Assembly (NCBI GenBank): GCA_037131105.1
Contig: JBAXRQ010000001.1
Location: 830,217-894,216, forward strand
Direction: 5' to 3'
Length of the DNA: 64,000 nucleotides
Source of the DNA: a bacterium
GTDB lineage: Bacteria > Patescibacteriota > UBA1384 > CAILIB01
Numbering within the stretch: position 1 is the stretch's first letter; every line of letters starts with the position of its first letter. Positions 48,981-63,739 of the stretch are shown one piece after another. The notes under the pieces are model-generated. The model was given only the letters and a program-made list of their open reading frames with translations. It searched no databases and was not told the DNA's origin. Made by a program: the position numbers and the translations under genes.

Positions 48981-51665
48981 CTATTCATTACTGGGGAAGG
49001 CCTGGTTAGCCAATGTCTCAAAGCGTCCAAACTGTAACCGGGCCAGCAACTTGGCATCCCCAGTCGGGCCGTTACGGTGCTTCCTCACCATCACTTCCAT
49101 GAGGTTGTTCTGCTCGTCCTTGTTATAGTAGTCGTCGCGATACAGGAACATCACCACGTCAGCGTCCTGCTCAATCGAATTGTGGACGACGATGTCATTG
49201 GCAACAAAGTTATGAGTTCCGGGAACTGTTGCGTCAAACACTTCTTCTACTGCCAGCGGAGTAATACTAGTAATTTCATCCCAATACAGATCGGAGTCAG
49301 CCAAGACCCCAAGATAACGACTACCGACTATCTGTGCAATTCGTCCTAGCCGCTCCCTGCTCACTCCGCTCTTAAACAAGGCTGATCCGGCGTAGGACAT
49401 TCCCATACTTGCCTGTACGGCTCTCCAGCTCAGCCCTGACGCCACTTTGGCCGGGATGATCAGCTGTTCCCAGATTGAAAGGTCGAGGGTATCGGTATTA
49501 GGATTGCCTTTTAAGCCAGCAAGCAACTCCTTGCACTGGCTAACGTTCTCTCCCCTGCGGCCATGACAGCCAACAGCGGCGAGAAATATTTCCTGGTTTG
49601 CCTTGCCTTGCACTTCTACATGATAACTTGGACGAAACGTCTTAGCTCCCTTGACCTGGGGAACCTGACGAAGGGTAGCCTGCATTCCCACCCGTAATAA
49701 TAGATGCTGCACCTGTTCCGCTAGAATCGGGCTAGTAGTAGCATAGTATATCGAGACCTTGTCCCTGGCTACGGACAGACATCCGTCAGTTGCCCACAAG
49801 TGATGCAGGAAGAGGGCTACCTGGGAATTTGAACAGCTGAAGAGACTGGCCGGCAGCTTTTTCTCATAGGAACGCGCCAATCCCAACCCCTCAGATTCCA
49901 ACCACTTTAGAAACGGATGCTTCTTACCTCTGGCATTACGATACGGACTAGGAAGATACAGATGATACCAGCTCTTCTGAGCAACCTGACGAGGCTTAAT
50001 CCCGTAAAGTATTGCAGTGGCATAGGCTACCGCTTCGATATTAGCTGGGTCATTACTCGTGTAATGCACCGGCTGGTGAGATACGTAGCACCCATCCCCC
50101 ACCATATGGGCCAGGAATGTCAGCTGTTCATCGCTATAAGAGGTGTTATCGGCAAGATTGCTAGGGAACTGACGTGGCAGGGCTAGTTTCTCGCCAATCT
50201 TAAGATTATCGAGGGATTGCCATTCAGTATACGTCTTGAACTTATGGTTAGCAGAGGCTTTGATCGTCCTACCGGAGCGGAACTTCAGCTCATATGTCTG
50301 CTTATAACCACTGGAGAATACTTTGGAAGCCGTCTTACGAACAATCTTATACTCCTCATCCATGCTCCACACCGGCACGTTAGTCTGACCTACCAGATCT
50401 TTGATCATTACGCGCTCACCAGTATCAGCTCTCTGGATAAGGGTATCGCCGGTCAAACAGCCACTTTCTCTTAGGTCCGACAGCAGCGGCCGCTTGTCCG
50501 GGCGCGACTCCACCGCACGGGAGAGCTGCGACAGGGCGATCACCGGACAGTTGATCTCTCGGGCCAGGGCCTTTAACGAGCGGGAGATTTCCGAGACTTC
50601 CTGTACACGGTTGTCGCTATTGCCTTTCGCGGTTCCCTCCATGAGCTGCAGGTAGTCCAATACTATGAGGTCAAGACCGTACTCAGCCTGCAGACGTCGA
50701 GCCTTGGCGCGAACCTCCATGATATTGGCCGAAGGGGTATCGTCGATGAACAGGTTGGCTTCGGCAAGTATTCCGTAGGCCTCGTTCAGGTTACGGAAGT
50801 CCTCGTCATTCAGCTTGCCGTTACGCAGCTTCCAGCTGTCGATCTGGCCAATAGAGGAAATGAGACGATCCACCAGCTGCTCCTTGGACATTTCCAGGGA
50901 GAAGATGCCCACCGACTTCTTCTGTTGCACGGCCACGTTCTGGGCGATCTGCAGGGCGAAGGCCGTTTTTCCCATCGAAGGACGGGCGGCCAGGATGATC
51001 AGGTCAGACTGCTGCAGGCCACCCAGGATATTGTCTATGTGCTTGTAGCCGGTCGAAAGGCCGCGCATAGTCCCATCCTGCTTGGACAAGGCATCCAGCC
51101 GCTCGAAGCTGTCGGCCAGGATGCTGCGGACCGGGATGAAGTTCTGCTTGAGGAAGCGCTGGGTGACGGCAAACAAGGCCTGCTCGGCCTGGTCCAGAAT
51201 GACGCTTGACGGCTCGTCCTCACGGAAGCCCAGCTCGCTGATCGAGCCGGCCGCGGAGATAAGGCGGCGCAGCATGGCCTTCTCCCGGACGATCTGGGCG
51301 TAATGCTGGACATTGGTGGCAGAGGCCACTGAGCTCACCAGGCTGGAAAGCTTGGCCGGGCCCCCTATCTGGTCCAGCTTCTTCACCCGGGCCAGCTCGT
51401 CGGCCACCGTCACCAGGTCGATGGGCACCCGCTTCTCTGAGAGAACCACCATGGCCTCGTAGATCGCCGCGTGGTCAGGGCGGTAGAAGTCGACGGCAGA
51501 CAGTATGTCGATGACCTTCAACATCGCCTCCACATCGAGAAGCAAGGCCCCGATAGTGGAGACCTCGGCGTCGATGTTCTGCGGGGGCATCCGGCCGGCC
51601 ACCTGGTGAGGGGTCAGCGACGGGGCCTCCTGCTGGTAGTTCTGACGAGAACCAGTGCGGGCCAT
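48981..51665 (-). CDS. dnaB: Replicative DNA helicase DnaB interrupted by an intein
   Basis: 894 aa. Exteins carry the DnaB motifs (ARPSMGKT; DLRESG|SIEQDAD). The insert lies at the canonical DnaB intein site. Confidence 0.9.
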   Translation of the reverse strand: MARTGSRQNYQQEAPSLTPHQVAGRMPPQNIDAEVSTIGALLLDVEAMLKVIDILSAVDFYRPDHAAIYEAMVVLSEKRVPIDLVTVADELARVKKLDQIGGPAKLSSLVSSVASATNVQHYAQIVREKAMLRRLISAAGSISELGFREDEPSSVILDQAEQALFAVTQRFLKQNFIPVRSILADSFERLDALSKQDGTMRGLSTGYKHIDNILGGLQQSDLIILAARPSMGKTAFALQIAQNVAVQQKKSVGIFSLEMSKEQLVDRLISSIGQIDSWKLRNGKLNDEDFRNLNEAYGILAEANLFIDDTPSANIMEVRAKARRLQAEYGLDLIVLDYLQLMEGTAKGNSDNRVQEVSEISRSLKALAREINCPVIALSQLSRAVESRPDKRPLLSDLRESGCLTGDTLIQRADTGERVMIKDLVGQTNVPVWSMDEEYKIVRKTASKVFSSGYKQTYELKFRSGRTIKASANHKFKTYTEWQSLDNLKIGEKLALPRQFPSNLADNTSYSDEQLTFLAHMVGDGCYVSHQPVHYTSNDPANIEAVAYATAILYGIKPRQVAQKSWYHLYLPSPYRNARGKKHPFLKWLESEGLGLARSYEKKLPASLFSCSNSQVALFLHHLWATDGCLSVARDKVSIYYATTSPILAEQVQHLLLRVGMQATLRQVPQVKGAKTFRPSYHVEVQGKANQEIFLAAVGCHGRRGENVSQCKELLAGLKGNPNTDTLDLSIWEQLIIPAKVASGLSWRAVQASMGMSYAGSALFKSGVSRERLGRIAQIVGSRYLGVLADSDLYWDEITSITPLAVEEVFDATVPGTHNFVANDIVVHNSIEQDADVVMFLYRDDYYNKDEQNNLMEVMVRKHRNGPTGDAKLLARLQFGRFETLANQAFPSNE
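49179..50459 (-). mobile_element. DnaB intein (427 aa) with LAGLIDADG homing-endonuclease domain
   Basis: Begins with Cys (CLTGDTLI) and ends ...VVHN before the +1 Ser. Two LAGLIDADG-like blocks (LAHMVGDGCY, LHHLWATDGC). Coordinates come from the ORF track and are ±2 nt. Confidence 0.8.
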
Positions 51666-52727: not shown

Positions 52728-54041
52728 TTAGGGGGTCAGCCGGTTCACACCGCGGTGCAGGTAGGTCACTTCCCTGATATTCTCAGTGTTGAACATCTTC
52801 ATCATCATGCGGACCGGTCCGATTCCGGCGCCACCGTGAGGTGGGCAGCCGTACTTGAAGAAGTCGAGATAGGTGCCAATGGACGCCTCTGTCAGCCCCT
52901 TGTCCAGAGCCTGCTTCTTAAGAACCTCGTAGCGATGCTCACGCTGGGCACCGGTAGTGATCTCTACCCCGTTCCACATCAAGTCAAAGCCTCTAGTGAT
53001 GCCGGGCCGGTCCTCGTACCGCATGTGGTAGAAAGCGCGACTCTCGATAGGATACTCCGTAACGAATACGAACTCGTGGCCATGTTTCTCCATGATGACC
53101 TCGGAAAGCTTCTTCTCTTCCTCAGGGTTGAGGTCGCCGACTTTGTCGCTCTTGATGTCAAACGGCTTGAGCAGCTCCTTGGCCTCGGCCAGGGTTACCC
53201 GGGGAAACGGCAGCGTAGGCACCACCAGCTCGCGACCGAACAGCTCCTTGATCTTCTCCCCGTGCCGCTCCTTGATCGTAGTGAGCACAGAGGCGATCAT
53301 TCCTTCAAGGTTGGCAGCGATGTCCTCATGAGAGTCAATGAACGACATCTCGAAGTCATAGCCGGTGAACTCGGTGGCATGCCGGGTGGTGAATGAGGGC
53401 TCAGCCCGGAACACCGGCCCGACCTCAAATACCTTCTCAAAGCCGGAGGCCATAGCCATCTGCTTGTAGAACTGGGGAGACTGGGCCAGATAGGCCTTGC
53501 CGCCGAAGTAGTCGACGGTGAAGAGCTCAGCTCCGGACTCGCTCGGAGCGCTCATGAACTTGGGCGAGTGGATTTCCAAGAAGCCCTTTTCCAGGAAGTA
53601 CTTCATGAACGCCTCCTCAAAGGTGGTCCAGACCTGGAAGATTAGTAGGTTTTTGGGCTTCCTCAGGTCCAGCCAGCGGTAGTCCAGGCGCAGCGACTGG
53701 TCGGTCTCCCCTTCACCCTTCTCAACTACGGGAATAGGCAGCTCAGGGGCGGCGGCAGAGAGCACCTCGACGCTTTCAACCTGGATCTCAGCCCCGCCGG
53801 GAGCCTGGGGAGCGGCCACTGCCACACCCTCGACGACGATCACCGATTCCAAGGAGATATCCTCAGCAGCGGCAAAGACGGCCTCATGCTCCTTGCTGAC
53901 CACGCACTGGATGGTGCCAGTGACGTCGCGCAGGATAAGGAACTGGATCTTGCTCTGGCGGCGGGCGGTCTGCAAAAAGCCCATCAGGCGGACTTTCTCT
54001 CCAGGCTTGGAGCCGGCCTGGGCGGTATAGGTTCGTTCCAT
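52728..54041 (-). CDS. aspS: Aspartyl-tRNA synthetase, archaeal/eukaryal type (likely non-discriminating)
   Basis: 437-aa class II aaRS with an N-terminal OB and motif 3 (GGAGIGPVRMMM). Co-occurs with gatCAB. Confidence 0.75.
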   Translation of the reverse strand: MERTYTAQAGSKPGEKVRLMGFLQTARRQSKIQFLILRDVTGTIQCVVSKEHEAVFAAAEDISLESVIVVEGVAVAAPQAPGGAEIQVESVEVLSAAAPELPIPVVEKGEGETDQSLRLDYRWLDLRKPKNLLIFQVWTTFEEAFMKYFLEKGFLEIHSPKFMSAPSESGAELFTVDYFGGKAYLAQSPQFYKQMAMASGFEKVFEVGPVFRAEPSFTTRHATEFTGYDFEMSFIDSHEDIAANLEGMIASVLTTIKERHGEKIKELFGRELVVPTLPFPRVTLAEAKELLKPFDIKSDKVGDLNPEEEKKLSEVIMEKHGHEFVFVTEYPIESRAFYHMRYEDRPGITRGFDLMWNGVEITTGAQREHRYEVLKKQALDKGLTEASIGTYLDFFKYGCPPHGGAGIGPVRMMMKMFNTENIREVTYLHRGVNRLTP

Positions 54042-54182: not shown

Positions 54183-54554
54183 AATAAAAATGCCCTCGCA
54201 CAATTACTCGAAAGTAATCATGTAAGGGCGACGTTAATCGCGGTGCCACCTTACTTCACTCCTGGCGGAGCCTTGTTTACGCTGTAACGGGCGCTCCCGA
54301 GGGGGTCTAGTATCCGCAGGAGCGGAGTTCTTCCCCTGGCTCAGCGGTGTCAGCCGCCTCAATGCCTATGCAAAGAGTATGGCAGAACCTGGAAAGGAGG
54401 GCAAGTGAGCTGGATTACAAACGTTTACAGCCCTGCCAAAGACCGCTATACTCATCCCAATGACCTCATACTCCTCTTTTAGCTTTTGCTGGCAGTCCCA
54501 CCTCCTTCTTCAGAAGCGAGCCCTGTTTTAGTACCAGTCTAAACCAGAAGACAG

Positions 54555-54612: not shown

Positions 54613-55410
54613 GTGGATCGCATGAAACGCGCATTCGCGCCTAGCCTTCGAGGCTTACTAGATACGACAAGTAGTAAAATGCTGGCAGAGACGGCACCAT
54701 GGGTCCGACACGGACTAGAGCGCAGGCTGGACAGCGGCATTTTGAGGCTAGTCTCGGTATTCTCACCGGACTATTCCCGAGCAGCCGATCGGATTACCTG
54801 CAGTACACGAGTGAATGACGGACTCCCCTATGGCGCCCAGACACATCTAAATCTGGTAGCAGAAATGAGGGAGACCCTCGCCCAGTACGGGATTGACCTG
54901 GAATACAGCATTACCCTGACTGACGGAGACGTAGAATTTCCCAGGGTAATGCACCAGGTGGCCGACGGTGACGGTGAGCAGTTCCTGGATAACTGCCAGC
55001 AGAGCTGCCATGCCTTGGGCGAGGAAGCAGAGAGACTGGGTCTGAGGGTAACGATCTGTGGACGCCACAGCGTCATATTTCCTACCTGGTACAAGGTCTA
55101 CGACAAGTTGGTGTCGGAGCTTGGCAGACAGGTGGAGGCCGACCCCAGCCTCTCGGCCCGACTTGGCTGCTTCGCAAGCCGCAGGCTAAGTCTCTATAGG
55201 GACATGGGGGCCTGGGACCTCAGCGTAGGATGCTCGCAGGAAATGCTGATTAGGCAATGGGCCCAGTGCATGACCTGGGGCGAATGCTCAAGTCGGGACA
55301 TCGGGGCTGACATAGTGACGCTTGGCCACGCCACCCCTGTGCTGGACATGCTGAATCATCCCCTGGTCCGCAAGGGAAGGGAACGCATCCCTTTGCTAAG
55401 GATCAGATAA
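54613..55410 (+). CDS. Hypothetical protein
   Basis: 265-aa ORF preceded by GAAAGGTGGA. No recognisable family. Confidence 0.35.
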   Translation: MDRMKRAFAPSLRGLLDTTSSKMLAETAPWVRHGLERRLDSGILRLVSVFSPDYSRAADRITCSTRVNDGLPYGAQTHLNLVAEMRETLAQYGIDLEYSITLTDGDVEFPRVMHQVADGDGEQFLDNCQQSCHALGEEAERLGLRVTICGRHSVIFPTWYKVYDKLVSELGRQVEADPSLSARLGCFASRRLSLYRDMGAWDLSVGCSQEMLIRQWAQCMTWGECSSRDIGADIVTLGHATPVLDMLNHPLVRKGRERIPLLRIR

Positions 55411-55521
55411 CGAATCGTGTATGTGCACCATCCCCGCCCCGCCATTTCCAAGGAAGTGGCGGGGATGTTTTTTGGCTTACGAGAAGGGGAAAATGTGGTA
55501 CGTTGGTATAAATTCTCTATC

Positions 55522-56301
55522 ATGTCCACCTCTAAAGAACATACTCCCGGTGAAAAAATACGCGAGCTCCGTAAGGAGAGAGCTCTTTCTATTGAGGCAC
55601 TGGCCAATGAAGCGGGCATAACAGCGGTGGCACTAAGTAATATCGAGACAAAACAAGCACATCCACAGCGCAACACCCTTCTAAAGCTGATAAGGTGCTT
55701 GGAAAATGTACTGTCACTTTTACCAAGTATCAGAAGAAGCCTGGTGTACTCCTATGGTTATACCGACGTCTACGACGCCCCAACCCCTCCTGAAATAACC
55801 ACGGCGATAACTGCCTGGGAACTCCAGTTCAAGAACACCTCCTTCCCCGCCTATGTCATCGATATGACGATGAAAATTCACACGGCAAACCGTGCCATGC
55901 TAGGTCTCATGGACGAATCTGGCCAAGCTCGCACAGACCTCTGGGTATACGACCTAATTTTCTCCCCACCCCTTAAAAAGGGGCTACGGTTAGAAGGCAC
56001 CTATCAACTAACCTATAACTTGGTGGCATACATCTGGTTTGATCATCAGCCCTATTTTCGAGAATCCTGGTGGCAGGAAAGCCTTCTTAAAGGCCGTAAG
56101 AAGTACCCTCTTTTCGGAGAACTAATCGATGGCTTCTCCAGTGGTACACTCCCATTGCCGGAACTTGAGACCATGGAACCAGTCACCTTCACACTTGCTG
56201 ACGGAAGCAAGCTCACTTATGGCATACTCTCGGCAAATGTAGTTGAAGATCCACGGTTTAGAAGTATCCAATTCATCCCTATGGGCCACGAAAAGATATA
56301 G
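55522..56301 (+). CDS. MmyB-like transcriptional regulator (XRE HTH + MmyB-like C-domain), paralog 1
   Basis: HTH_XRE (GEKIRELRKERALSIEALANEAGITAVALSNIE) and a C-domain with KYPLFGEL. The track ORF starts at 55417; I prefer the internal Met. Confidence 0.6.
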   Translation: MSTSKEHTPGEKIRELRKERALSIEALANEAGITAVALSNIETKQAHPQRNTLLKLIRCLENVLSLLPSIRRSLVYSYGYTDVYDAPTPPEITTAITAWELQFKNTSFPAYVIDMTMKIHTANRAMLGLMDESGQARTDLWVYDLIFSPPLKKGLRLEGTYQLTYNLVAYIWFDHQPYFRESWWQESLLKGRKKYPLFGELIDGFSSGTLPLPELETMEPVTFTLADGSKLTYGILSANVVEDPRFRSIQFIPMGHEKI

Positions 56302-56377: not shown

Positions 56378-56764
56378 ATGATGAGAGACCACCTCACCAC
56401 CATCCAAGACCTTAAGGACCTTACCCAGAGGTTTAAAAAGGAGCGAAACTGGGGCGCCAACCACACCCCAAAGAATCTGGCCGTTTCCATCGCCATCGAA
56501 GGAGCCGAGCTAATGGAGCACTTCCAATGGGAGGATGTGATCAGACCTGACTCAAGACTCGAAATAAAACAGGAACTAGCCGATGTGGTGATTTACTGTC
56601 TATTTTTTGCACAGGCAAGCAGGATTGATTTAGCAAAAGCGATTGAAGAAAAGATGGCTCATAACGCTCGTAAGTATCCTGTTGAGCTTTTTAAGGGAGA
56701 GGGTGGAACAAATGAGGATTATTACAGAATAAAACGCGGATATCGCCAGAAACAACATGTGTAG
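56378..56764 (+). CDS. MazG-like nucleotide pyrophosphohydrolase
   Basis: EExxE-type helical NTP-PPase core (IEGAELMEHF...ELADVVIY). Confidence 0.65.
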   Translation: MMRDHLTTIQDLKDLTQRFKKERNWGANHTPKNLAVSIAIEGAELMEHFQWEDVIRPDSRLEIKQELADVVIYCLFFAQASRIDLAKAIEEKMAHNARKYPVELFKGEGGTNEDYYRIKRGYRQKQHV

Positions 56765-56796: not shown

Positions 56797-57621
56797 TTGG
56801 AAAAAACTTACCCAGATATGGCAGTAGCCCTGTTCCTCACATCAGGAGAAAAGATACGCGAGCTCCGTAAGGAACGCGGCCTTTCTATTGAGGCACTGGC
56901 CAATGAAGCGGGCATAACAGCGGTGGCACTAAGTAATATCGAGCTGAAGTCAGCCGCTCCGCAGCGCTCAACCATACTCAAGCTTCTTGACTGCCTCGAC
57001 TCAACACTTCCCATACCCGTGGAGAAACGTCGCGAGATTACCGATGCCTTTGGCTACATAGATATACCTGGCGTCCCCAACCAGCACGATATCGACAAAG
57101 CAGTACAGGCATGGCAAAAGCCATTCAAAAACACACCCTATCCAGCCTATATTCTTGACCGCGTTCAGCGCATCCATGACTGGAACGATCAAATGCTGGC
57201 CTTCATCGGTGAGGACATACAAGACCTGAAGGGCAGGACCATATTCGACCTGCTATTCGACGGGCGTTCCCGCGGCGTGGTGAATCTGGTCAATGAAGAG
57301 GAAGTAGTCACAAAGATGGTCAGGCACATGCGCAAGGAGTACAGGCCCTATATGGATGAGGAATGGTGCAAGCAATGCCTGGCAGATGCCCGGGCAAAGT
57401 ACCCTCTCTTTGGCGAGCTGTTTGACACTCTCCCCGACGAAGGCTCTCCCGCCCTTGACCTAAGGGCTACCGGCCCGATCATTCTCCGGGACAAGGAAGG
57501 CCACACCCTTCATTTTCAAATAGTAGGTATCGACCTCATAAGCGACCCCCGCTTCGGCGTGGTGCAGTACATCCCCCTGGATAAGGAGACTGCCCAGATC
57601 CTCACCAACCTCTTCAGCTAA
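56797..57621 (+). CDS. MmyB-like transcriptional regulator, paralog 2
   Basis: Same architecture as 55522..56301. Shares an identical ~64-nt HTH-coding tract with it. Confidence 0.6.
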   Translation: MEKTYPDMAVALFLTSGEKIRELRKERGLSIEALANEAGITAVALSNIELKSAAPQRSTILKLLDCLDSTLPIPVEKRREITDAFGYIDIPGVPNQHDIDKAVQAWQKPFKNTPYPAYILDRVQRIHDWNDQMLAFIGEDIQDLKGRTIFDLLFDGRSRGVVNLVNEEEVVTKMVRHMRKEYRPYMDEEWCKQCLADARAKYPLFGELFDTLPDEGSPALDLRATGPIILRDKEGHTLHFQIVGIDLISDPRFGVVQYIPLDKETAQILTNLFS

Positions 57622-57754
57622 ACGCGGAACGATTCCTAACGGCTATATTGACATTTCCCAGGTTACGTGCTACTATGCATCCGCCCATTAAACCTGAGTG
57701 AAGTAGATCGCAGGCGCCACCATGGCGCCAGATCAGATTTGAAAGGACAGAAAA

Positions 57755-58726
57755 GTGAGACTTGCAACTTGCAGTCTAATGCTCGCGCTGTTTCTGATGG
57801 CGAATGTCGCCCAGTCACAGCAGATCGACCCGTCGTTCCCCCTTTTGGGAAAGACGTACGGACCGGCCGGGATCTATATTCCGGACGCAGTGGGGATTTC
57901 AAACACCTCTCTGAACCCAGCCCGGCAGATGTCAATCACCGACATCTCTGCGAATAACCAGGTTGTTGAAGGCGATTTTGGTCGACTCAGCCTGGCCAAC
58001 AGCAACGCCGACTGGGAAATCGGCAATTACAGCTTCGTCAGCAAAGACCGTCGGGCAGTGGGACGCATTTCCTGGAACCACTTCACGGTGGGCCACGGGA
58101 TAATACCCGCGACAGATCCGGCCGAGATCGCCATGCGCGGAGACGCCTGGGAGCTGATAGGCGCATACCGCGTCAATAAGCACCTCGACGTTGGCGGCGC
58201 GATAGTTCCCGAGGACGCCACCCACTCCAGTCTGCAGCTCCAGGGTCAGACCCTGGCTTCAGGAGGCAGCAGGTCGCAGCGTCAGGGCCGAGTAGGCGCC
58301 TACTACCATGCTGGCAAGCTGGGTCTGGGTTACGAAGCAGGCTGGGAACGAGGTGTCGTTAGTAGCAGCATTCTTGGCAACGCACCGGTCAGCTCCGGAT
58401 ATAACCAGGATCACACCACCTACGGTGCCTCCTGGAGCCCGAAGCTGGGAACGACGGCGTTCTATAACCGCCAACGTTTCAACCTCAAGAATGAAGCGCT
58501 GGGCCTCGTGACCAAGACGGACTATTGGGGCGTCCAGCAGGCGCTCAGCCGCAAGGTAATCGCCCAGATTGCCCGCTCGGACAAGGCCACCGCACTTTCA
58601 GCAACCTGGTTGCCGGACGACCGCTATGGCCTGAACGTTTCATATACCAACAGGGCGTTCAGCACCTCGGAAGCAGCTTATGGCAAGGGCAACCTTACAT
58701 TCGTGAGCCTGTGGAAGAGCTTCTGA
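57755..58726 (+). CDS. Secreted Gly/Ser/Tyr-rich beta-barrel-like (porin-like) protein ending in Phe
   Basis: Signal peptide (ANVAQS|QQ). Amphipathic beta-strand-like composition. C-terminal ...TFVSLWKSF. Confidence 0.4.
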   Translation: MRLATCSLMLALFLMANVAQSQQIDPSFPLLGKTYGPAGIYIPDAVGISNTSLNPARQMSITDISANNQVVEGDFGRLSLANSNADWEIGNYSFVSKDRRAVGRISWNHFTVGHGIIPATDPAEIAMRGDAWELIGAYRVNKHLDVGGAIVPEDATHSSLQLQGQTLASGGSRSQRQGRVGAYYHAGKLGLGYEAGWERGVVSSSILGNAPVSSGYNQDHTTYGASWSPKLGTTAFYNRQRFNLKNEALGLVTKTDYWGVQQALSRKVIAQIARSDKATALSATWLPDDRYGLNVSYTNRAFSTSEAAYGKGNLTFVSLWKSF

Positions 58727-58870
58727 ACACACCAACCAAAGACAGAACGGATAAGGAGGGTCCGGAAGGGACGAGGCATCTGCCCCGTCCCTTTGACGTT
58801 TTAGCCTTAAAAACAACGTCCTCGGATAACCGATAATTTTAATAATTTCGTAATTATTATTACAACAATT

Positions 58871-58907
58871 TAACCTGATTGACAGGTTAAATAAACTATG
58901 CTACTAT
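58871..58907 (+). promoter_or_regulatory. Consensus sigma70 promoter (TTGACA-17-TACTAT) overlapped by palindrome TAACCTG-N5-CAGGTTA
   Basis: -35 at 58879..58884 and -10 at 58902..58907. The inverted repeat at 58871..58889 covers the -35. AAGGAGG RBS, then the GTG start at 58938. Confidence 0.55.
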
Positions 58908-58937: not shown

Positions 58938-59564
58938 GTGAAGACGTTACTGGAAACAGACAACGGGATGTGCGTGGTTCAAGCCACCACAGCTCCCGAA
59001 GTCGAAGAACTGATCAGGCTTTTCGAAAAGATCGCCGAAGAGCAACACTGGCAGCCAGGGGACCAGCTACGCGCCTACCCCGAGTCCTCTATTCACTTCG
59101 GACTTATGGCCGGCACAAGTTTTATCGGCGGCCTACAGCTCGTTCTGGGAGGAAACAGTAAGGAAGGTATGCCCTGCCTCACCGTATGGCCAGAACTTGA
59201 CCTGAGATACCAAACCGATGTTGCTGACATTGCCTTGCTTGCTCTCGATGAAAAACATCGCGGGCAAAACGAGCTCTTCTGGCCACTCTGCATAGAAATG
59301 TGGAGATACTGTGAACGGGCAGGAATCACTCGGCTGATGGTTGAGGCAACACGTGAGAAGCAAGTGCTGTACAGGCGGTTCGGATGGCCCCTCAAGGCTG
59401 CCGGCGAAGTCCGACTCCATTGGGGAGAACCCTGCCAGCCCTGTTGGATGACCACAGCAGAAATCAATACAGAAATGGCGACAAAAAGTTCGCGAGGGAG
59501 CCTAAAATATGCCACCATCTTTTCCCTGATGCACCGCATCAGGGACTCTGACGAACGACCCTAG
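58938..59564 (+). CDS. GNAT-fold acyltransferase, autoinducer-synthase/N-acyl-amino-acid-synthase-like
   Basis: 208 aa with a LuxI/FeeM-like sequence pattern (IRLFEKIAEEQHW ... RLMVEATREKQVLYRRFGW). Family assignment is tentative. Confidence 0.45.
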   Translation: MKTLLETDNGMCVVQATTAPEVEELIRLFEKIAEEQHWQPGDQLRAYPESSIHFGLMAGTSFIGGLQLVLGGNSKEGMPCLTVWPELDLRYQTDVADIALLALDEKHRGQNELFWPLCIEMWRYCERAGITRLMVEATREKQVLYRRFGWPLKAAGEVRLHWGEPCQPCWMTTAEINTEMATKSSRGSLKYATIFSLMHRIRDSDERP

Positions 59565-59635: not shown

Positions 59636-60481
59636 ATGGCAAAGAATGTCTCCAGAATCCTGAGTACCGCTGTAAGTCCGTACGACGAGTACTGCACGGG
59701 TTTTGGCATGCTTCCAGAAAGCACGTACATCACCACTCCTCTTATCGCAACCGGCGTCGCAGACATTGAATGCGCCCACGGCGGCTCAGACATACTAGAC
59801 AAGATTGTTTCCTTCGACCGTGCCGAAGGTGAATACGCCAATATCACTCAGACCAACATGGTCACCGTATCCTCATTCAACGGCATAAACGGCGCCATTC
59901 TTGGCTACGATTTTCTCAAGCAGAACATTCGCCCCTATCATCTTGTCGATCCTGAGAAGTATCCAAATGTCTATGACGCTGAGCCCCTCTTTAAGGCAAC
60001 CCAGGCGCTCTATGGCACCATAAAGGAAAAGCACTTCCCCATTGCCCCAGGCCAGCATATCCTTTGCGCCTATAAGAGCCTCTACAAGAACGGCCCCTGC
60101 ATGATGTACGGCGCCCTTGCCATTGCTATCGCCAAGGACCGTGAGCACAACGCCGATCTTTACATGGAGGATCACGGAACAGTCCTCGCAACCCATAGCC
60201 GAGAGGCAAATCTGGAGCAGCAAACCACCATTATCGAAAGCCTGCTGCTTTCAGTAAAGCGTATTTCTGAAAACCTGAACGTGGAGTATGAAAAAATCTT
60301 CATTGGCTTCAAGTGTAAGAACGTTCAGTCTGGCCAGGTTGGCTGTGTGATTACGGCCGCCCCCTATATTCATCTTGCCAAGAATGCAATCCCTAAAGGG
60401 GATATTCCAGCGCTTGAACATATGAGTCTTTCTGACTGGCAAAGCCAGGTCAGTGGCTCATATATGAACCAACCCGCCTGA
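59636..60481 (+). CDS. hdcA: Pyruvoyl-dependent histidine decarboxylase proenzyme homolog (HdcA family)
   Basis: Block-wise match to Lactobacillus 30a HdcA as I recall it (IVSFDRAE, NMVTVSSFNG serinolysis site at Ser79-Ser80, ILGYDFL, ITAAPYIHL). Confidence 0.75.
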   Translation: MAKNVSRILSTAVSPYDEYCTGFGMLPESTYITTPLIATGVADIECAHGGSDILDKIVSFDRAEGEYANITQTNMVTVSSFNGINGAILGYDFLKQNIRPYHLVDPEKYPNVYDAEPLFKATQALYGTIKEKHFPIAPGQHILCAYKSLYKNGPCMMYGALAIAIAKDREHNADLYMEDHGTVLATHSREANLEQQTTIIESLLLSVKRISENLNVEYEKIFIGFKCKNVQSGQVGCVITAAPYIHLAKNAIPKGDIPALEHMSLSDWQSQVSGSYMNQPA

Positions 60482-60492
60482 CACACTAAGGT

Positions 60493-62700
60493 ATGGCCTA
60501 TCTCATCACAGGCCTCTATTGCTTCTGCCTAGCCTTTCTAGTGGCTTCAGCGCTATTTATCTATTTCAAAAACTCGAAGTCTTGGCTGAACCGCTATTTC
60601 CTGCTCTTAAGTGTCTCAATATTCGCATGGCTACTCACCCTCTACTTTTTTGATCGGCAGGCAGATTCATCCCTATTAACTCTCCTGGGCCGCGCCAACT
60701 TTACTTCAGCCGCCTTCATCGTCCTCTTTAATTATCTTTTCACTCCCCAGGTAGTAGGAGAACGCTCAAAGTGGACATGGCTGCTTGTGGCAGAGACCGT
60801 CATCCTTGCGGGCCTTACACAGTTTACAGGACTTATTGACCATAGTGAGCACCTAAAGGATGGCCAGCACATCACCCAGTTTGGTCCTCTTTTTCCATTC
60901 TATATCGTCCATATCGTCGTATACGTCCTCGTGGCGCTCTACCTTACCTTTTTCGCCTACAGGAAGGTCAAGGCAGCCGTTCGTAGCCAGCTCAACATCA
61001 TCGGATTCGGTGTGTTTCTCATGGCAGGCATAGCCATCTTCACCAATATCATTCTCCCCTACGGATATAACTTTTTTGACTTTCAAGAGGTAGGAGCACT
61101 TTCAACCACCTTCTTCCTCCTTGCAATAGCGTACGCCATTAGCGCCCATCACCTGTTTGATATCAGAGTAATCATCAAGAGAACGGTAATCTACACCGGT
61201 CTCCTGATCTTTGCCCTGCTGACATACAGCATGGTCATCTTCTTCTTTACCAACCTGTTCGGCGGCAATGGAAGCGCCTTTGACACCCGCAACTTCCTGG
61301 TAAACCTCCTCGCCGCCGGCCTCATCGCCGTAGGCTACGACCCACTGCGCCGCACCCTGGAGGACAAGACCGACTCCTTCCTCTTCAAGAAGGAATACGA
61401 GGAGCAGGCCGTACTGAACGAACTGGGCCGCAAGCTAAACGACGTAGTCGCCCTGGACGAGGCGCTTGACCTGATGATGCAGACCATTGTGAAGGTCTTC
61501 CACCTTCACCACGCTGTCACCTTTGTCTTCCAGCCGGCTGAAAACAGCGAGGTGGCCATCAAGCGGATCAAGCAGATCGGCTACACCAGCATGAACCACG
61601 TCTACCTGAACGACGACGACTTCACCATCAGCTACTTTAGTAGCCATCCTGGCGTCACCCGCCTCGACGTGCTGAACCAAGAGACTGAGGAGGAAAAGCG
61701 CCGTTTCAGCAATCTAAGCAATGGCAATACCAAGAGCCTTCCCAAAGAGACCAGTCACCTGATCCGCCAGCATGCTATCAAAGTAGCCGTCGCCAAGAAG
61801 CTTACTGATCTAAGCGCCGCCCTGGCTATTCCTCTTCACCTGAACCAGCAGCCCATCGGCCTTATCCTGCTTTCGGACAAACTCTCTGGCGACACCTTTT
61901 CCCCTGAGGACGTGACCCTTCTAGATACCATGGCTACCCAGGCCATCTCCTCCATCCAGAAGGCTAAGCTCTACGAAGGTGATCAGATGAAGAGCGAATT
62001 CGTCTCTATCGCCTCTCACGAGCTATTAACCCCGGTCTCTGCCATGGAAGGCTACCTCTCCATGATCTTGGATGAGAACATGGGTAAGGTGGACGCCCAG
62101 GCTCGCAACTATCTGGATAAGGTCTATATCTCTTCCAAGCGCCTCTCCGCCCTGGTTAAGGACCTGCTCTCCGTCTCACGTATCGAAGCTGGCCGCATGA
62201 AGATGGAACCCCAGTCACTAGACATGAATAAGCTTATCCATGACACCATGGACCAGTTGAAATTCCTGGCTGAGAACAAGAAGCTCAAGATGACCTACAA
62301 GGCTGCCGACAAGGCCCTACCCCCTGTCTGGGCTGACTCTGACCGTACCATGCAGGTATTGGTCAACCTGGTAAGCAATGCCATCAAGTACACTCCAAAG
62401 GGTGACATCGTCATTACCGCTAGCCACAGCCTGCAGCCCACCCCTCATGTCCAGGTTTCAGTCACTGATACCGGCCTCGGTATCAGCAAAGCTGCTCAAG
62501 CCCACCTCTTCGAGAAGTTCTACCGCGTCGCCACCCCGCAGACCACCGGTATCGTCGGCACCGGCCTAGGTCTCTATATCACCAAGTCGATCATTGAGAT
62601 GATGGGCGGGGTCATGACCCTGAAGAGTACCGAGGGCAAGGGCAGCACCTTCAGCTTTACCCTGCCCACCTTTAAGGTGGAGAAGTCCAGGCCAGAGTAA
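60493..62700 (+). CDS. 7TM-GAF sensor histidine kinase
   Basis: N-terminal 7 TM helices, a central GAF-like region, HisKA (SIASHELLTPVS) and HATPase_c (GTGLGLYITKSIIEMMGG). Confidence 0.85.
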   Translation: MAYLITGLYCFCLAFLVASALFIYFKNSKSWLNRYFLLLSVSIFAWLLTLYFFDRQADSSLLTLLGRANFTSAAFIVLFNYLFTPQVVGERSKWTWLLVAETVILAGLTQFTGLIDHSEHLKDGQHITQFGPLFPFYIVHIVVYVLVALYLTFFAYRKVKAAVRSQLNIIGFGVFLMAGIAIFTNIILPYGYNFFDFQEVGALSTTFFLLAIAYAISAHHLFDIRVIIKRTVIYTGLLIFALLTYSMVIFFFTNLFGGNGSAFDTRNFLVNLLAAGLIAVGYDPLRRTLEDKTDSFLFKKEYEEQAVLNELGRKLNDVVALDEALDLMMQTIVKVFHLHHAVTFVFQPAENSEVAIKRIKQIGYTSMNHVYLNDDDFTISYFSSHPGVTRLDVLNQETEEEKRRFSNLSNGNTKSLPKETSHLIRQHAIKVAVAKKLTDLSAALAIPLHLNQQPIGLILLSDKLSGDTFSPEDVTLLDTMATQAISSIQKAKLYEGDQMKSEFVSIASHELLTPVSAMEGYLSMILDENMGKVDAQARNYLDKVYISSKRLSALVKDLLSVSRIEAGRMKMEPQSLDMNKLIHDTMDQLKFLAENKKLKMTYKAADKALPPVWADSDRTMQVLVNLVSNAIKYTPKGDIVITASHSLQPTPHVQVSVTDTGLGISKAAQAHLFEKFYRVATPQTTGIVGTGLGLYITKSIIEMMGGVMTLKSTEGKGSTFSFTLPTFKVEKSRPE

Positions 62701-63346: not shown

Positions 63347-63739
63347 ATGCCTGCAGAAGGAACCACCATATTGCTAGCTGAAGACGACATCATCCTGGCC
63401 GAGCTCTACACTGAGCGCCTTAAGCAGGAGGGATTCAACGTATTGCACGCCGCTGACGGCGAGGCCGCCCTGAAGTTCGTCAAGGAGGACCATCCTGCCC
63501 TGGTTATCCTGGACATCATGATGCCGAAAATGAACGGACTCGATGTACTAAAGCAGATGAAAGAGGACCCTGCTACTAAGAACATCCCGATAATCGTGGT
63601 CACCGCCCTGGTTCAGGAGATCGAGAAGATCAGCAAGATGATGACCCAGGCCGACGCCTACATCGTGAAGTCCGAAGTACTACCCGGAGAGATCATTGAG
63701 CAGGTCAAGAAGCGCTTGGAGGCAGTCCAGGCCGCCTGA
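63347..63739 (+). CDS. Stand-alone response-regulator receiver (CheY-like)
   Basis: EDD...ILDIMMPKMNGLDV...K pattern with no output domain. Confidence 0.8.
   Translation: MPAEGTTILLAEDDIILAELYTERLKQEGFNVLHAADGEAALKFVKEDHPALVILDIMMPKMNGLDVLKQMKEDPATKNIPIIVVTALVQEIEKISKMMTQADAYIVKSEVLPGEIIEQVKKRLEAVQAA

What the first reader, a model, noticed from the sequence alone, without database searches (positions are those of the whole stretch)
57755..58726. Porin-like secreted beta-barrel candidate ending in aromatic Phe
The ORF has a signal peptide, Gly/Ser/Tyr-rich alternating segments and a terminal ...SLWKSF, which are features of outer-membrane beta-barrels. If the host is a monoderm CPR-type cell, as the other genes suggest, an OMP-like protein would be unexpected. 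It may instead be an S-layer or secreted beta-rich protein.
Basis: inference. Interest (0 to 1): 0.5.

Follow-up and report, generated by a model that had tools for sequence, protein, structure and literature searches.

The report
FadL-type membrane barrel in CPR bacterium
A bacterium from a group thought to have only one membrane natively encodes a confidently predicted outer-membrane-type fatty-acid-channel (FadL-like) barrel, always next to the same small set of enzyme and sensor genes, which raises the question of which membrane this protein sits in.

The parts
57648..57676 (+). Sigma-70-type promoter-like site TTGACA-17 nt-(TG)cTACTAT, 79 nt upstream of the GTG start
   Evidence: 10 of 12 matches, with the TG extension. 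The pattern TTGACA-N17-TACTAT occurs only twice in 64 kb, here and before the FeeM-like gene; 0.15 matches are expected by chance. Orthologues in L004, L005, L090 and L009 also have their own near-consensus promoter.
57713..57729 (+). 7-nt inverted repeat GGCGCCA-N3-TGGCGCC in the 5' leader. It could be an RNA hairpin or an operator; its function is unknown.
   Evidence: It is not conserved upstream of the orthologues.
57742..57747 (+). Ribosome-binding site AAAGGA, 7 nt before the GTG start
   Evidence: Sequence read. Similar sites precede the orthologues.
57755..58726 (+). ORF for the 323-aa precursor of a compact FadL/TodX-type beta-barrel (mature protein about 302 aa)
57755..57817 (+). Sec signal peptide (aa 1-21), with predicted cleavage VAQS|QQ
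   Evidence: Family-wide AxA|Q site in alignment A1; the only strongly hydrophobic 19-mer lies at the N-terminus.
57818..57952 (+). N-terminal hatch-like segment (aa 22-66; short helices 28-35, 37-40 and 55-64) with conserved PDA...NPA
   Evidence: AF2 secondary structure. HHalign aligns it in register with the FadL hatch.
57914..57922 (+). Invariant N54-P55-A56, which is mature positions 33-35, the same numbering as E. coli FadL N33-P34-A35
   Evidence: Invariant in 28 of 28 sequences; positions computed; aligned on the FadL NPA.
57959..58720 (+). Fourteen beta-strands (aa 69-322) forming the barrel
58721..58723 (+). C-terminal Phe323, the terminal aromatic residue typical of BAM-assembled barrels
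   Evidence: 24 of 34 family members end in F, W or Y.
58766..58793 (+). 13-nt inverted repeat (AAGGGACGAGGCA / TGCCCCGTCCCTT) 40 nt after the stop codon, followed by TTTGACGTTTT. This is a terminator-like hairpin.
   Evidence: 92% complementary. The simple terminator scan did not call it because the T-run is interrupted.
58879..58907 (+). Second copy of the same promoter architecture, upstream of the FeeM-like gene
58938..59564 (+). FeeM-like (GNAT-fold) N-acyl amino acid synthase candidate, 208 aa
   Evidence: Pfam PF21926, E 7.9e-6, 26.2 bits against a cut-off of 27. The 39%-identical orthologue in L090 has a FeeM hit on record. GNAT genes occupy the same position in L006 and L009.
59636..60481 (+). 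Pyruvoyl-dependent decarboxylase of the histidine-decarboxylase type, 281 aa, with the Ser79-Ser80 self-cleavage site conserved
   Evidence: Pfam HDC 2.1e-48. TIGR00541 scores 157 bits, below the equivalog cut-off of 347. It aligns to both chains of Lactobacillus 30a HDC.
60493..62700 (+). Sensor histidine kinase: HisKA_7TM N-terminal region, GAF, HisKA and HATPase domains (735 aa)
   Evidence: Orthologues lie next to the barrel in L002, L005, L090, L091 and L098.
63347..63739 (+). Single-domain response regulator (130 aa)
   Evidence: Response regulators occur in 6 family loci.
55417..56301 (+). HTH regulator paralogous to the MmyB-like regulator (294 aa)
   Evidence: HTH_3 and HTH_19. It is 42% identical to 56797-57621 and 40% identical to an L005 MmyB-like gene.
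56797..57621 (+). MmyB-like transcription regulator (HTH plus MLTR ligand-binding domain), directly upstream of the barrel gene
   Evidence: PF17765, 3.8e-10. Orthologues in L005 are 55% and 45% identical.

Best explanation
The ORF encodes a Sec-exported, compact member of the FadL/TodX superfamily, about 302 aa when mature. It is a monomeric 14-stranded transmembrane beta-barrel whose lumen is closed by an N-terminal hatch carrying the NPA motif.

By analogy with FadL and TodX, it most likely works as an energy-independent conduit that lets one small hydrophobic or amphipathic compound cross an outer lipid layer. The substrate would bind, the hatch would rearrange, and the substrate would pass on, possibly laterally through the barrel wall.

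The gene has its own strong promoter. In CPR-type genomes it is embedded in a conserved module made of a pyruvoyl-dependent amino-acid decarboxylase, a GNAT/FeeM-type N-acyltransferase, a 7TM-GAF histidine kinase and a response regulator. The cargo is therefore probably a fatty acid, or an amine-derived or N-acylated metabolite that this module makes, takes up or senses.

Shown here: the gene and its family, the signal peptide, the fold class, remote homology to FadL including the NPA motif, membrane-barrel sequence features, native status in a CPR genome, and the gene linkage.

Inferred: channel activity, the nature of the ligand, and above all the membrane it sits in. That could be an unrecognised outer membrane of this CPR lineage or the outer membrane of a diderm host cell. 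The location is unresolved.
For: Fold:
- AF2 on a 28-sequence alignment gives pLDDT 93.1 and pTM 0.85, with 14 strands and an N-terminal helical segment.
- The top 17 Foldseek PDB hits are all FadL, TodX, TbuX or CymD.

Sequence homology:
- HHalign of the family profile against an 8-sequence FadL/OMPP1 profile gives probability 96.2%, E 2.2e-9 and 296 aligned columns, with NPA on NPA.
- Controls against OmpF/OmpC and OmpG give 1.2% and 3.3%.
- NPA is invariant and sits at mature positions 33-35, as in E. coli FadL. FadL NPA mutants were made for structural study (PDB titles).

Membrane-barrel features:
- The period-2 hydrophobic pattern has z = 4.1.
- The window protein is hydrophobic at 82% of 67 conserved hydrophobic strand columns and charged at 3%. 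An Armatimonadota member scores 93%.
- The C-terminal residue is aromatic in 24 of 34 members.
- The only Pfam signals seen in more than one family member are outer-membrane barrel families: Porin_4 in 7 of 28 and OMP_b-brl in 2; Toluene_X, DUF2490 and Opacity each hit one member.

Native gene:
- GC 58.6% and GC3 70% match housekeeping genes. ENA and Logan contigs are 100% identical to the window.

Linkage:
- Pyruvoyl decarboxylase in 6 of 11 distinct loci, orthologous 7TM kinase in 6 of 11, GNAT/FeeM in 4 of 11, response regulator in 6 of 11.
- The same promoter architecture occurs only before the barrel gene and the FeeM-like gene.

Background: CPR depend on their hosts for fatty acids and interact with diderm as well as monoderm hosts (bioRxiv 10.1101/2024.03.08.584096).
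Against: - No Pfam or NCBIfam model, including PF03349 Toluene_X, matches the query. Only 1 of 28 members touches Toluene_X, at E 0.01.
- HHalign against the single E. coli FadL sequence is not significant.
- The HHalign control profiles were shallower than the FadL profile, so the specificity contrast is imperfect.
Barrel closure, the hatch lying inside the lumen, the S3 kink or lateral opening, and a continuous hydrophobic belt are inferred from structural alignment and sequence pattern, not inspected.
- The protein is about 120 residues shorter than FadL and lacks the long extracellular loops that form FadL's substrate-binding sites.
- FadL-like barrels can also serve as protein partners (BamG, PorV) rather than small-molecule channels.
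- CPR are thought to lack an outer membrane and BAM, and no other OMP-like gene or OM-biogenesis gene was seen in the 64-kb window or in the fetched flanks of relatives. So the membrane needed for this mechanism has not been demonstrated.
- The FeeM assignment in the window is just below Pfam's threshold, and single-sequence AF2 of that protein failed (pLDDT 32).
- Both decarboxylase types score below their equivalog cut-offs, so their substrates are unknown.
Confidence: 0.6

Rival explanations
1. It is an amino-acid or amine diffusion pore that serves the neighbouring pyruvoyl decarboxylase, like the chlamydial AaxA porin in the aaxABC arginine:agmatine exchange cluster. Substrate amino acid would enter and the product amine would leave through the barrel.
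For: The barrel lies within one to three genes of a pyruvoyl-dependent decarboxylase in 6 of 11 loci. In L002 the two genes overlap. A porin plus pyruvoyl ArgDC plus transporter cluster is documented in Chlamydia (PMC2720952, PMC8503770). A small EamA-type transporter gene sits in the module in L091.
Against: The fold is specifically FadL/TodX-like, with a hatch and the NPA motif. It is not an open 16-18-strand porin. FadL-type channels are known for hydrophobic cargo (established knowledge). No APC-type amino-acid:amine antiporter (the AaxC equivalent) occurs in any of the loci. The module also contains acyltransferases and a sensor kinase, which Aax systems lack.
Confidence: 0.18
2. It is a FadL-fold barrel used as a structural or adaptor subunit of an envelope machine, as BamG is in the Bacteroidota BAM complex or PorV in type IX secretion. 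It would not act as a small-molecule channel.
Against: No BAM or T9SS component, and no conserved surface-protein partner, is linked to it in any of the 11 loci. The transport-associated NPA motif is invariant.
Confidence: 0.1
3. It is a secreted soluble or S-layer-type beta-rich protein of a monoderm cell. In this view the barrel prediction is over-interpreted.
For: CPR are regarded as monoderm, with surface layers. No BamA could be checked.
Against: The model is very confident, and its best matches are exclusively integral outer-membrane barrels. About 67 conserved hydrophobic strand positions are almost never charged. The C-terminal aromatic residue is conserved. No SLH or S-layer domain was found. 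Distant members are encoded by diderm Armatimonadota.
Confidence: 0.05
4. The gene does not belong to a CPR cell. It would be contaminating or mis-assembled DNA from a diderm bacterium, or a very recent horizontal acquisition with no function in this host.
For: Distant family members carry Armatimonadota and Acidobacteriota names, so a diderm source for the family exists.
Against: The gene lies inside a 949-kb contig, between CPR-type housekeeping genes. Two other assemblies are 100% identical across the junctions. Its GC and GC3 equal those of GroEL, LigA and AspRS. Seven further loci with small-genome-type housekeeping neighbours carry orthologues in the same module, three of them syntenic with TrpRS/TyrRS or AspRS genes. 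The Armatimonadota loci lack the module.
Confidence: 0.03

Closest known systems
FadL / TodX / TbuX / CymD outer-membrane channels for hydrophobic compounds (Pfam PF03349, OMPP1/FadL/TodX; PDB 1t16, 3brz, 3bry, 6z34)
   Different: The mature protein is about 120 residues shorter, with much shorter loops. It is not recognised by PF03349 or by any NCBIfam model. It is encoded in a CPR genome rather than a classical diderm. It is linked to a decarboxylase, acyltransferase and 7TM-kinase module rather than to fatty-acid or aromatic-degradation genes. The S3 kink and lateral opening could not be checked.
BamG (FadL-like subunit of Bacteroidota BAM complexes; PDB 9hj3_F, 9n2d_B, 9hjm_F) and PorV (type IX secretion; 6h3i_F)
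   Different: Those proteins work as partners of protein machines in Bacteroidota outer membranes. No BAM or T9SS genes are linked to the barrel here.
Chlamydial aaxABC cluster (AaxA porin, AaxB pyruvoyl arginine decarboxylase, AaxC antiporter)
   Same: An outer-membrane barrel gene is genetically coupled to a pyruvoyl-dependent amino-acid decarboxylase in a reduced-genome, host-dependent bacterium (PMC2720952, PMC8503770).
   Different: The barrel here is FadL-type and not an open porin. There is no AaxC-like antiporter. The module has extra acyltransferase, sensor-kinase and response-regulator genes. Sequence similarity to AaxA was not tested.
Classical general porins (OmpF/OmpC, Pfam Porin_1 and Porin_4)
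   Same: Both are secreted beta-barrels with a terminal Phe. Seven of 28 family members give weak Porin_4 hits, the best at E 1.2e-5.
   Different: The barrel has 14 strands, not 16, and has a hatch domain. HHalign against OmpF/OmpC gives 1.2%. Foldseek TM-scores to the porins are about 0.3.

Membership tests
FadL/TodX/OMPP1 superfamily | Monomeric barrel of 14 antiparallel beta-strands | tested here: met
FadL/TodX/OMPP1 superfamily | N-terminal hatch domain of about 40 residues preceding strand 1 and plugging the lumen | tested here: inconclusive
   A segment of about 45 residues (aa 22-66) with short helices precedes strand 1, and HHalign aligns it in register with the FadL hatch. Whether it lies inside the lumen could not be inspected, because model coordinates are not exposed.
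FadL/TodX/OMPP1 superfamily | Conserved NPA motif in the hatch (FadL N33-P34-A35) | tested here: met
   N54-P55-A56 is invariant in 28 of 28 sequences. This is mature positions 33-35, and it aligns on the FadL NPA.
FadL/TodX/OMPP1 superfamily | Sequence match to the curated family model (Pfam PF03349 Toluene_X) above threshold | tested here: not met
   The query has no Pfam hit at E <= 10. Only 1 of 28 members hits Toluene_X, at E 0.01.
FadL/TodX/OMPP1 superfamily | Detectable remote homology by profile-profile comparison | tested here: met
   HHalign of A1 against A5 (8 FadL/OMPP1 proteins at 23-38% identity): probability 96.2%, E 2.2e-9, 296 columns. Controls: OmpF/OmpC 1.2%, OmpG 3.3%. The control profiles were shallower.
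FadL/TodX/OMPP1 superfamily | Inward kink in strand S3 giving a lateral opening in the barrel wall | not testable with these tools
   This needs model coordinates. DSSP shows strand 3 (101-116) as continuous, which neither proves nor excludes a kink.
FadL/TodX/OMPP1 superfamily | Transport of long-chain fatty acids or other hydrophobic compounds | not testable with these tools
   Only indirect context is available: a FeeM-like N-acyl synthase and MmyB-like regulators nearby.
BAM-assembled outer-membrane proteins | C-terminal beta-signal ending in an aromatic residue | tested here: met
   The query ends in F323. Across the family the last residue is F in 17, W in 6 and Y in 1 of 34. The -3 position in the query is Lys rather than a hydrophobic residue, so the motif is imperfect.
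BAM-assembled outer-membrane proteins | The host encodes BamA/Omp85 and has an outer membrane | not testable with these tools
   Only 64 kb of the 949-kb contig is visible. No Omp85, Lpt, Lol, Tol-Pal or other OMP-like gene was seen in the window or in the fetched flanks of relatives. The literature regards CPR as lacking an outer membrane.
Classical general porins (Porin_1/Porin_4) | 16- or 18-strand trimeric barrel without a plug, matching the porin models | tested here: not met
   The barrel has 14 strands and a hatch. The query has no Porin hit. HHalign against OmpF/OmpC gives 1.2%. Foldseek TM-score is about 0.3.
AaxA-type porin-decarboxylase systems | Porin gene clustered with a pyruvoyl decarboxylase and an amino-acid:amine antiporter | tested here: not met
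   The decarboxylase linkage is present in 6 of 11 loci, but no antiporter occurs in any locus.
S-layer / SLH surface proteins | SLH or another S-layer anchoring or lattice domain | tested here: not met
   No such Pfam or NCBIfam domain was found in the query or in any of the 28 members.

The most novel reading that the evidence does not exclude
A clade of CPR/Patescibacteria, a group regarded as single-membraned, uses a genuine outer-membrane-type barrel. One possibility is that these cells keep or build a second lipid membrane, with some Omp85-like insertase, that nobody has recognised. The other is that the epibiont exports the FadL-like channel and plants it in the outer membrane of a diderm host, to siphon fatty acids or lipid-like signals under the control of the linked 7TM sensor kinase. 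I would put roughly two-thirds of this probability on the first version and one-third on the second.
Probability: 0.35. Interest if true: 0.9.

Novelty: new variant of a known kind. Interest (0 to 1): 0.68.

Why it matters
CPR/Patescibacteria are treated as monoderm in envelope-evolution schemes and in models of how these epibionts feed on their hosts. This gene is native, conserved and probably well expressed, and its product has the sequence and fold features of a lipid-embedded FadL-type barrel. That is hard to reconcile with a cell that has no outer membrane and no BAM machinery.

The finding gives a concrete, testable handle on several questions:
- Screen the same MAGs for Omp85, Lpt and Lol genes.
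- Localise the protein by proteomics or cryo-ET.
- Test it in E. coli.

FadL channels carry fatty acids, and CPR cannot make their own lipids, so the protein is also a candidate for the long-sought route of lipid acquisition. Its fixed association with a pyruvoyl decarboxylase, an N-acyltransferase and a 7TM sensor kinase defines a previously undescribed gene module.

If the genome turns out to encode BamA, the result bears on whether and when CPR lost the outer membrane. If it does not, it points to BAM-independent insertion or to insertion into the host's membrane.

Tried and rejected
1. Word-indexed protein searches with the single protein and with the family alignment returned only the self-hit and two members. 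The exhaustive phmmer search was needed to find the family.
With the single protein it found nothing in the GTDB genomes.
3. The afdb50 fold library was unavailable.
4. Profile search of PDB sequences gave only chance-level hits.
5. HHalign against single FadL or OmpG sequences was uninformative. A diverse FadL profile had to be built from plasmid records.
6. A simple even/odd parity analysis of whole strands gave weak contrast because of register shifts. It was replaced by per-position and best-window analyses with shuffles and a leave-one-out test.
7. GroEL was too conserved for taxonomy: 69% to Uhrbacteria but 66% to Ruminococcaceae. RecG resolved it.
8. The IMG/VR scan gave one 27% match over 109 residues, lying in a 472-aa ORF with no N-terminal signal peptide. 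I judged it spurious, so there is no evidence of phage origin.
9. A CAGGTT/AACCTG motif is shared by the two promoters. I rejected it as an operator because the 7-mer occurs 20 times in the window and is absent upstream of the orthologues.
10. AF2 of the FeeM-like neighbour failed.
11. The weak NCBIfam TRAP-TAXI hit (E 0.049, residues 4-70) covers the signal peptide and was dismissed.
12. Rfam found no known RNA element in the barrel gene's leader.
Full report
**Observation.** The ORF is at 57755-58726 on the + strand, 323 aa, with a GTG start and an AAAGGA ribosome-binding site 7 nt upstream.
- NCBI annotates a shorter version starting at an internal ATG (315 aa, MEI6478281.1, "MAG: hypothetical protein WCO52_04840 [bacterium]", on a 949,156-bp contig).
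- An ENA gene call (P0155) uses the GTG start. The homologue alignment shows the usual M-R/K n-region followed by a canonical AxA|Q signal-peptidase site.
- The composition is Ala/Gly/Ser-rich, with 4.3% Tyr and 2.5% Trp. The only hydrophobic stretch of helix length is the signal peptide.

**A real but unannotated family.**
- Pfam and NCBIfam give nothing for the query.
- The word-indexed search finds only the protein itself.
- Exhaustive phmmer over 1.84 billion cluster representatives finds 33 proteins. Nearly all are 322-349 aa and match end to end, down to about 23% identity.
- The alignment (A1) has invariant N54-P55-A56, G147, R179-x-G181, Q262 and G310, plus a conserved PDA about 8 residues before the NPA.
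- The last residue is F, W or Y in 24 of 34 members.

**Fold.**
- AlphaFold2 with A1 gives pLDDT 93.1 and pTM 0.85. It predicts fourteen long strands between residues 69 and 322, preceded by a roughly 45-residue segment with short helices.
- There is then a gap to CymA (18.9), OmpG (18.4), autotransporter barrels and PorV (17.3).
- The top 17 Foldseek hits are all TbuX, CymD, TodX or FadL.
I could not inspect the coordinates.

**Sequence-level link to FadL.**
- HHalign of A1 against the single E. coli FadL sequence is not significant.
- I therefore built a profile of eight FadL/OMPP1 proteins at 23-38% identity, taken from E. coli K-12 and annotated plasmid records.
- HHalign of A1 against this profile gives 96.2% probability, E 2.2e-9 and 296 aligned columns. 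It runs in register from the signal peptide through the hatch, with the family NPA on the FadL NPA.
- With cleavage after S21, the NPA is at mature residues 33-35, the same numbering as FadL N33-P34-A35. The PDB holds FadL mutants N33A, P34A and delta-NPA (titles). That these mutations abolish transport is from my own knowledge of the FadL literature.
- Controls against OmpF/OmpC and OmpG give 1.2% and 3.3%, though those profiles are shallower.
- Scanning all 28 members against Pfam, the only families hit by more than one member are outer-membrane barrel families: Porin_4 in 7 and OMP_b-brl in 2. Toluene_X, Opacity, DUF2490 and a few unrelated families each hit one member.

**Is it still a membrane barrel in the CPR proteins?**
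- Conserved hydrophobic positions alternate with period 2 in all 14 strands. No within-strand shuffle out of 2000 reached the observed value (z = 4.1).
- In a leave-one-out test the window protein is hydrophobic at 82% of 67 conserved hydrophobic strand columns, at 12% of conserved polar columns, and charged at only 3% of the former.
- These values are like those of a member from a diderm phylum (P0023, 93%).
- That is about five conserved hydrophobic positions per strand, as expected for a lipid-exposed belt. Assigning these columns to the outer face is an inference.

**Host.**
- The window carries ordinary housekeeping genes: GatA, LigA, FtsEX, MetRS, RecG, GroEL, an intein-containing DnaB, TrpRS/TyrRS and AspRS/AsnRS.
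- It also carries features common in monoderm and CPR genomes: a G5-DPBB protein, ComEA, large pilin-like proteins and TrmB regulators.
- GroEL is too conserved to decide: 69% to a Ca. Uhrbacteria MAG but 66% to Clostridia.
- For RecG, apart from one MAG labelled Verrucomicrobiae at 50%, the relatives named to phylum are all CPR: "Patescibacteria group bacterium" at 62% and 61%, then Berkelbacteria, Doudnabacteria and further Patescibacteria at 41-44%.
- A T-box leader precedes the AspRS/AsnRS gene.
- I found no paper linking FadL, BamA or beta-barrels to Patescibacteria.

**The gene is native.**
- Its GC (58.6%) and GC3 (70%) match GroEL, LigA and AspRS.
- A 92-kb ENA contig and a Logan contig are 100% identical to the window across the gene and its neighbours.
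- An IMG/VR scan gave only a spurious hit.

**Gene neighbourhood.** I obtained 11 distinct loci for family members and clustered their ORFs.
- A pyruvoyl-dependent decarboxylase lies within one to three genes in 6 loci. It is the HDC type (281 aa) in the window and L090, and the PvlArgDC type (about 160 aa) in L002, L004, L006 and L091.
- An orthologous HisKA_7TM(-GAF) histidine kinase of 600-770 aa is present in 6 loci: the window, L002, L005 (64% identical), L090, L091 and L098.
- Response regulators are present in 6 loci.
- A FeeM-like or GNAT acyltransferase is present in 4 loci: the window, L090, L006 and L009.
- The window's decarboxylase aligns to both chains of Lactobacillus 30a histidine decarboxylase and keeps the Ser-Ser self-cleavage site (S79-S80). 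It scores below the equivalog cut-off, so its substrate is open.
- L005, L090 and L098 also share TrpRS/TyrRS or AspRS synteny with the window.
- MmyB-like regulators, whose ligand-binding domain I recall binds fatty-acid-like ligands, sit directly upstream in the window and nearby in L005.
- The barrel gene has its own near-consensus promoter (TTGACA-17-TGcTACTAT) and a terminator-like hairpin.
- That promoter pattern occurs only twice in 64 kb, the second time before the FeeM-like gene, against 0.15 expected. Orthologues also carry their own strong promoters.

**The family is not CPR-only.** One distant cluster (P0023, 27% identity) contains proteins that NCBI names from Armatimonadota and Acidobacteriota MAGs. 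There the gene stands alone among glycoside-hydrolase and PEP-CTERM genes, without the module. L099 (P0013) also lacks the module. This supports the view that the family is a genuine outer-membrane protein family. It also leaves open whether the CPR clade acquired it horizontally or kept it from a diderm ancestor.

**Mechanism.** The best-supported reading is a compact FadL-type passive channel for a hydrophobic or amphipathic small molecule. It is functionally tied to a decarboxylase, acyltransferase and sensor-kinase module, so the candidate cargo is a fatty acid or an N-acyl or amine-derived metabolite. Rivals:
- An AaxA-like amino-acid/amine pore. There is a precedent for porin plus pyruvoyl ArgDC in Chlamydia (PMC2720952, PMC8503770). 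But the fold is wrong for an open porin and no antiporter is present.
- A BamG- or PorV-like adaptor. No partner genes are linked.
- A soluble or S-layer protein. This is contradicted by the fold and the sequence features.
- Contamination. This is contradicted by the assembly, composition and synteny evidence.

**What remains open.** It is unknown which membrane holds the protein. No other OMP-like protein (signal peptide, no TM helix, aromatic C-terminus) and no OM-biogenesis gene appears in the window or the fetched flanks. The only other hits to that filter are two L002 surface proteins ending in TGNY. The other 885 kb of the genome could not be searched, so the BamA test is still to be done. 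CPR epibionts are reported to interact with both monoderm and diderm hosts and to depend on them for fatty acids (bioRxiv 10.1101/2024.03.08.584096). Both an unrecognised outer membrane and insertion into a host outer membrane therefore remain live possibilities.

**Verdict.** The OMP-like interpretation is supported and sharpened to a new, compact subfamily of the FadL/TodX superfamily, in an unexpected host and with a new conserved gene context. I rate it a new variant of a known kind, interest 0.68.

Noticed in passing
window 54221-54371 (-): There is a T-box leader match (Rfam RF00230, 46 bits, E 7.5e-8, below the gathering score of 93, full model length) directly upstream of the class II AspRS/AsnRS gene (52728-54041, -). 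This looks like a T-box riboswitch in a CPR genome.
   Followed up: no
window 48981-51665 (-): The DnaB replicative helicase is interrupted by an intein with a LAGLIDADG homing-endonuclease domain. The helicase C-terminal domain is split into two matched stretches.
   Followed up: no
window 57648-57676 and 58879-58907 (+): The exact promoter architecture TTGACA-N17-TACTAT, both copies with TGC before the -10 element, occurs only twice in 64 kb even with one mismatch allowed (0.15 expected). The copies lie in front of the barrel gene and the FeeM-like gene, which suggests co-regulation.
   Followed up: partly
window 55417-56301, 56378-56764 and 56797-57621 (+): Two paralogous HTH regulators (42% identical, one with a clear MmyB-like ligand-binding domain) flank a MazG-like pyrophosphohydrolase just upstream of the barrel. 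Two orthologues occur in the syntenic locus L005.
   Followed up: partly
window 57755 vs 57779: The NCBI record starts the protein at an internal ATG (315 aa). That removes the charged n-region of the signal peptide. The GTG start (323 aa), used by the ENA gene call, fits the homologues and the ribosome-binding site better.
   Followed up: yes
window 59636-60481 (+); L090 11021-11866; L002, L004, L006, L091: Two different types of pyruvoyl-dependent decarboxylase occupy the same module in different lineages: the HDC type (281 aa) and the PvlArgDC type (about 160 aa). Both score below their equivalog cut-offs, so the substrate may be neither histidine nor arginine.
   Followed up: partly
window 9486-11501 (-): A 671-aa protein has only a C-terminal T2SSG/pilin-like domain match (residues 524-605). 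It is an unusually large pilin-like protein of the kind often seen in CPR.
   Followed up: no
L002 1657-2370 and 2455-3504 (+): Two secreted proteins ending in ...TGNY lie next to a WxLIP_PGBD protein and a 1119-aa unknown protein. This resembles a Gram-positive-type WxL surface cluster, about 6 kb upstream of that contig's barrel gene.
   Followed up: no
L009 1162-2916: In this locus the barrel is followed by a ThiF-like enzyme, a GNAT and a fragment with weak Peptidase_C39 similarity, instead of the decarboxylase/kinase module. This may be a peptide-modification or peptide-export context.
   Followed up: no
P0057: A RecG protein 50% identical to the window's is labelled "Verrucomicrobiae bacterium" (MAG TPA), while the other named relatives are labelled Patescibacteria/CPR or just "bacterium". 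The label may be a taxonomic misassignment.
   Followed up: no
window 54613-55410 (+): This 265-aa ORF (called as 262 aa in the ENA contig) lies between the T-box/AspRS region and the first HTH regulator. It has no Pfam or NCBIfam match.
   Followed up: no
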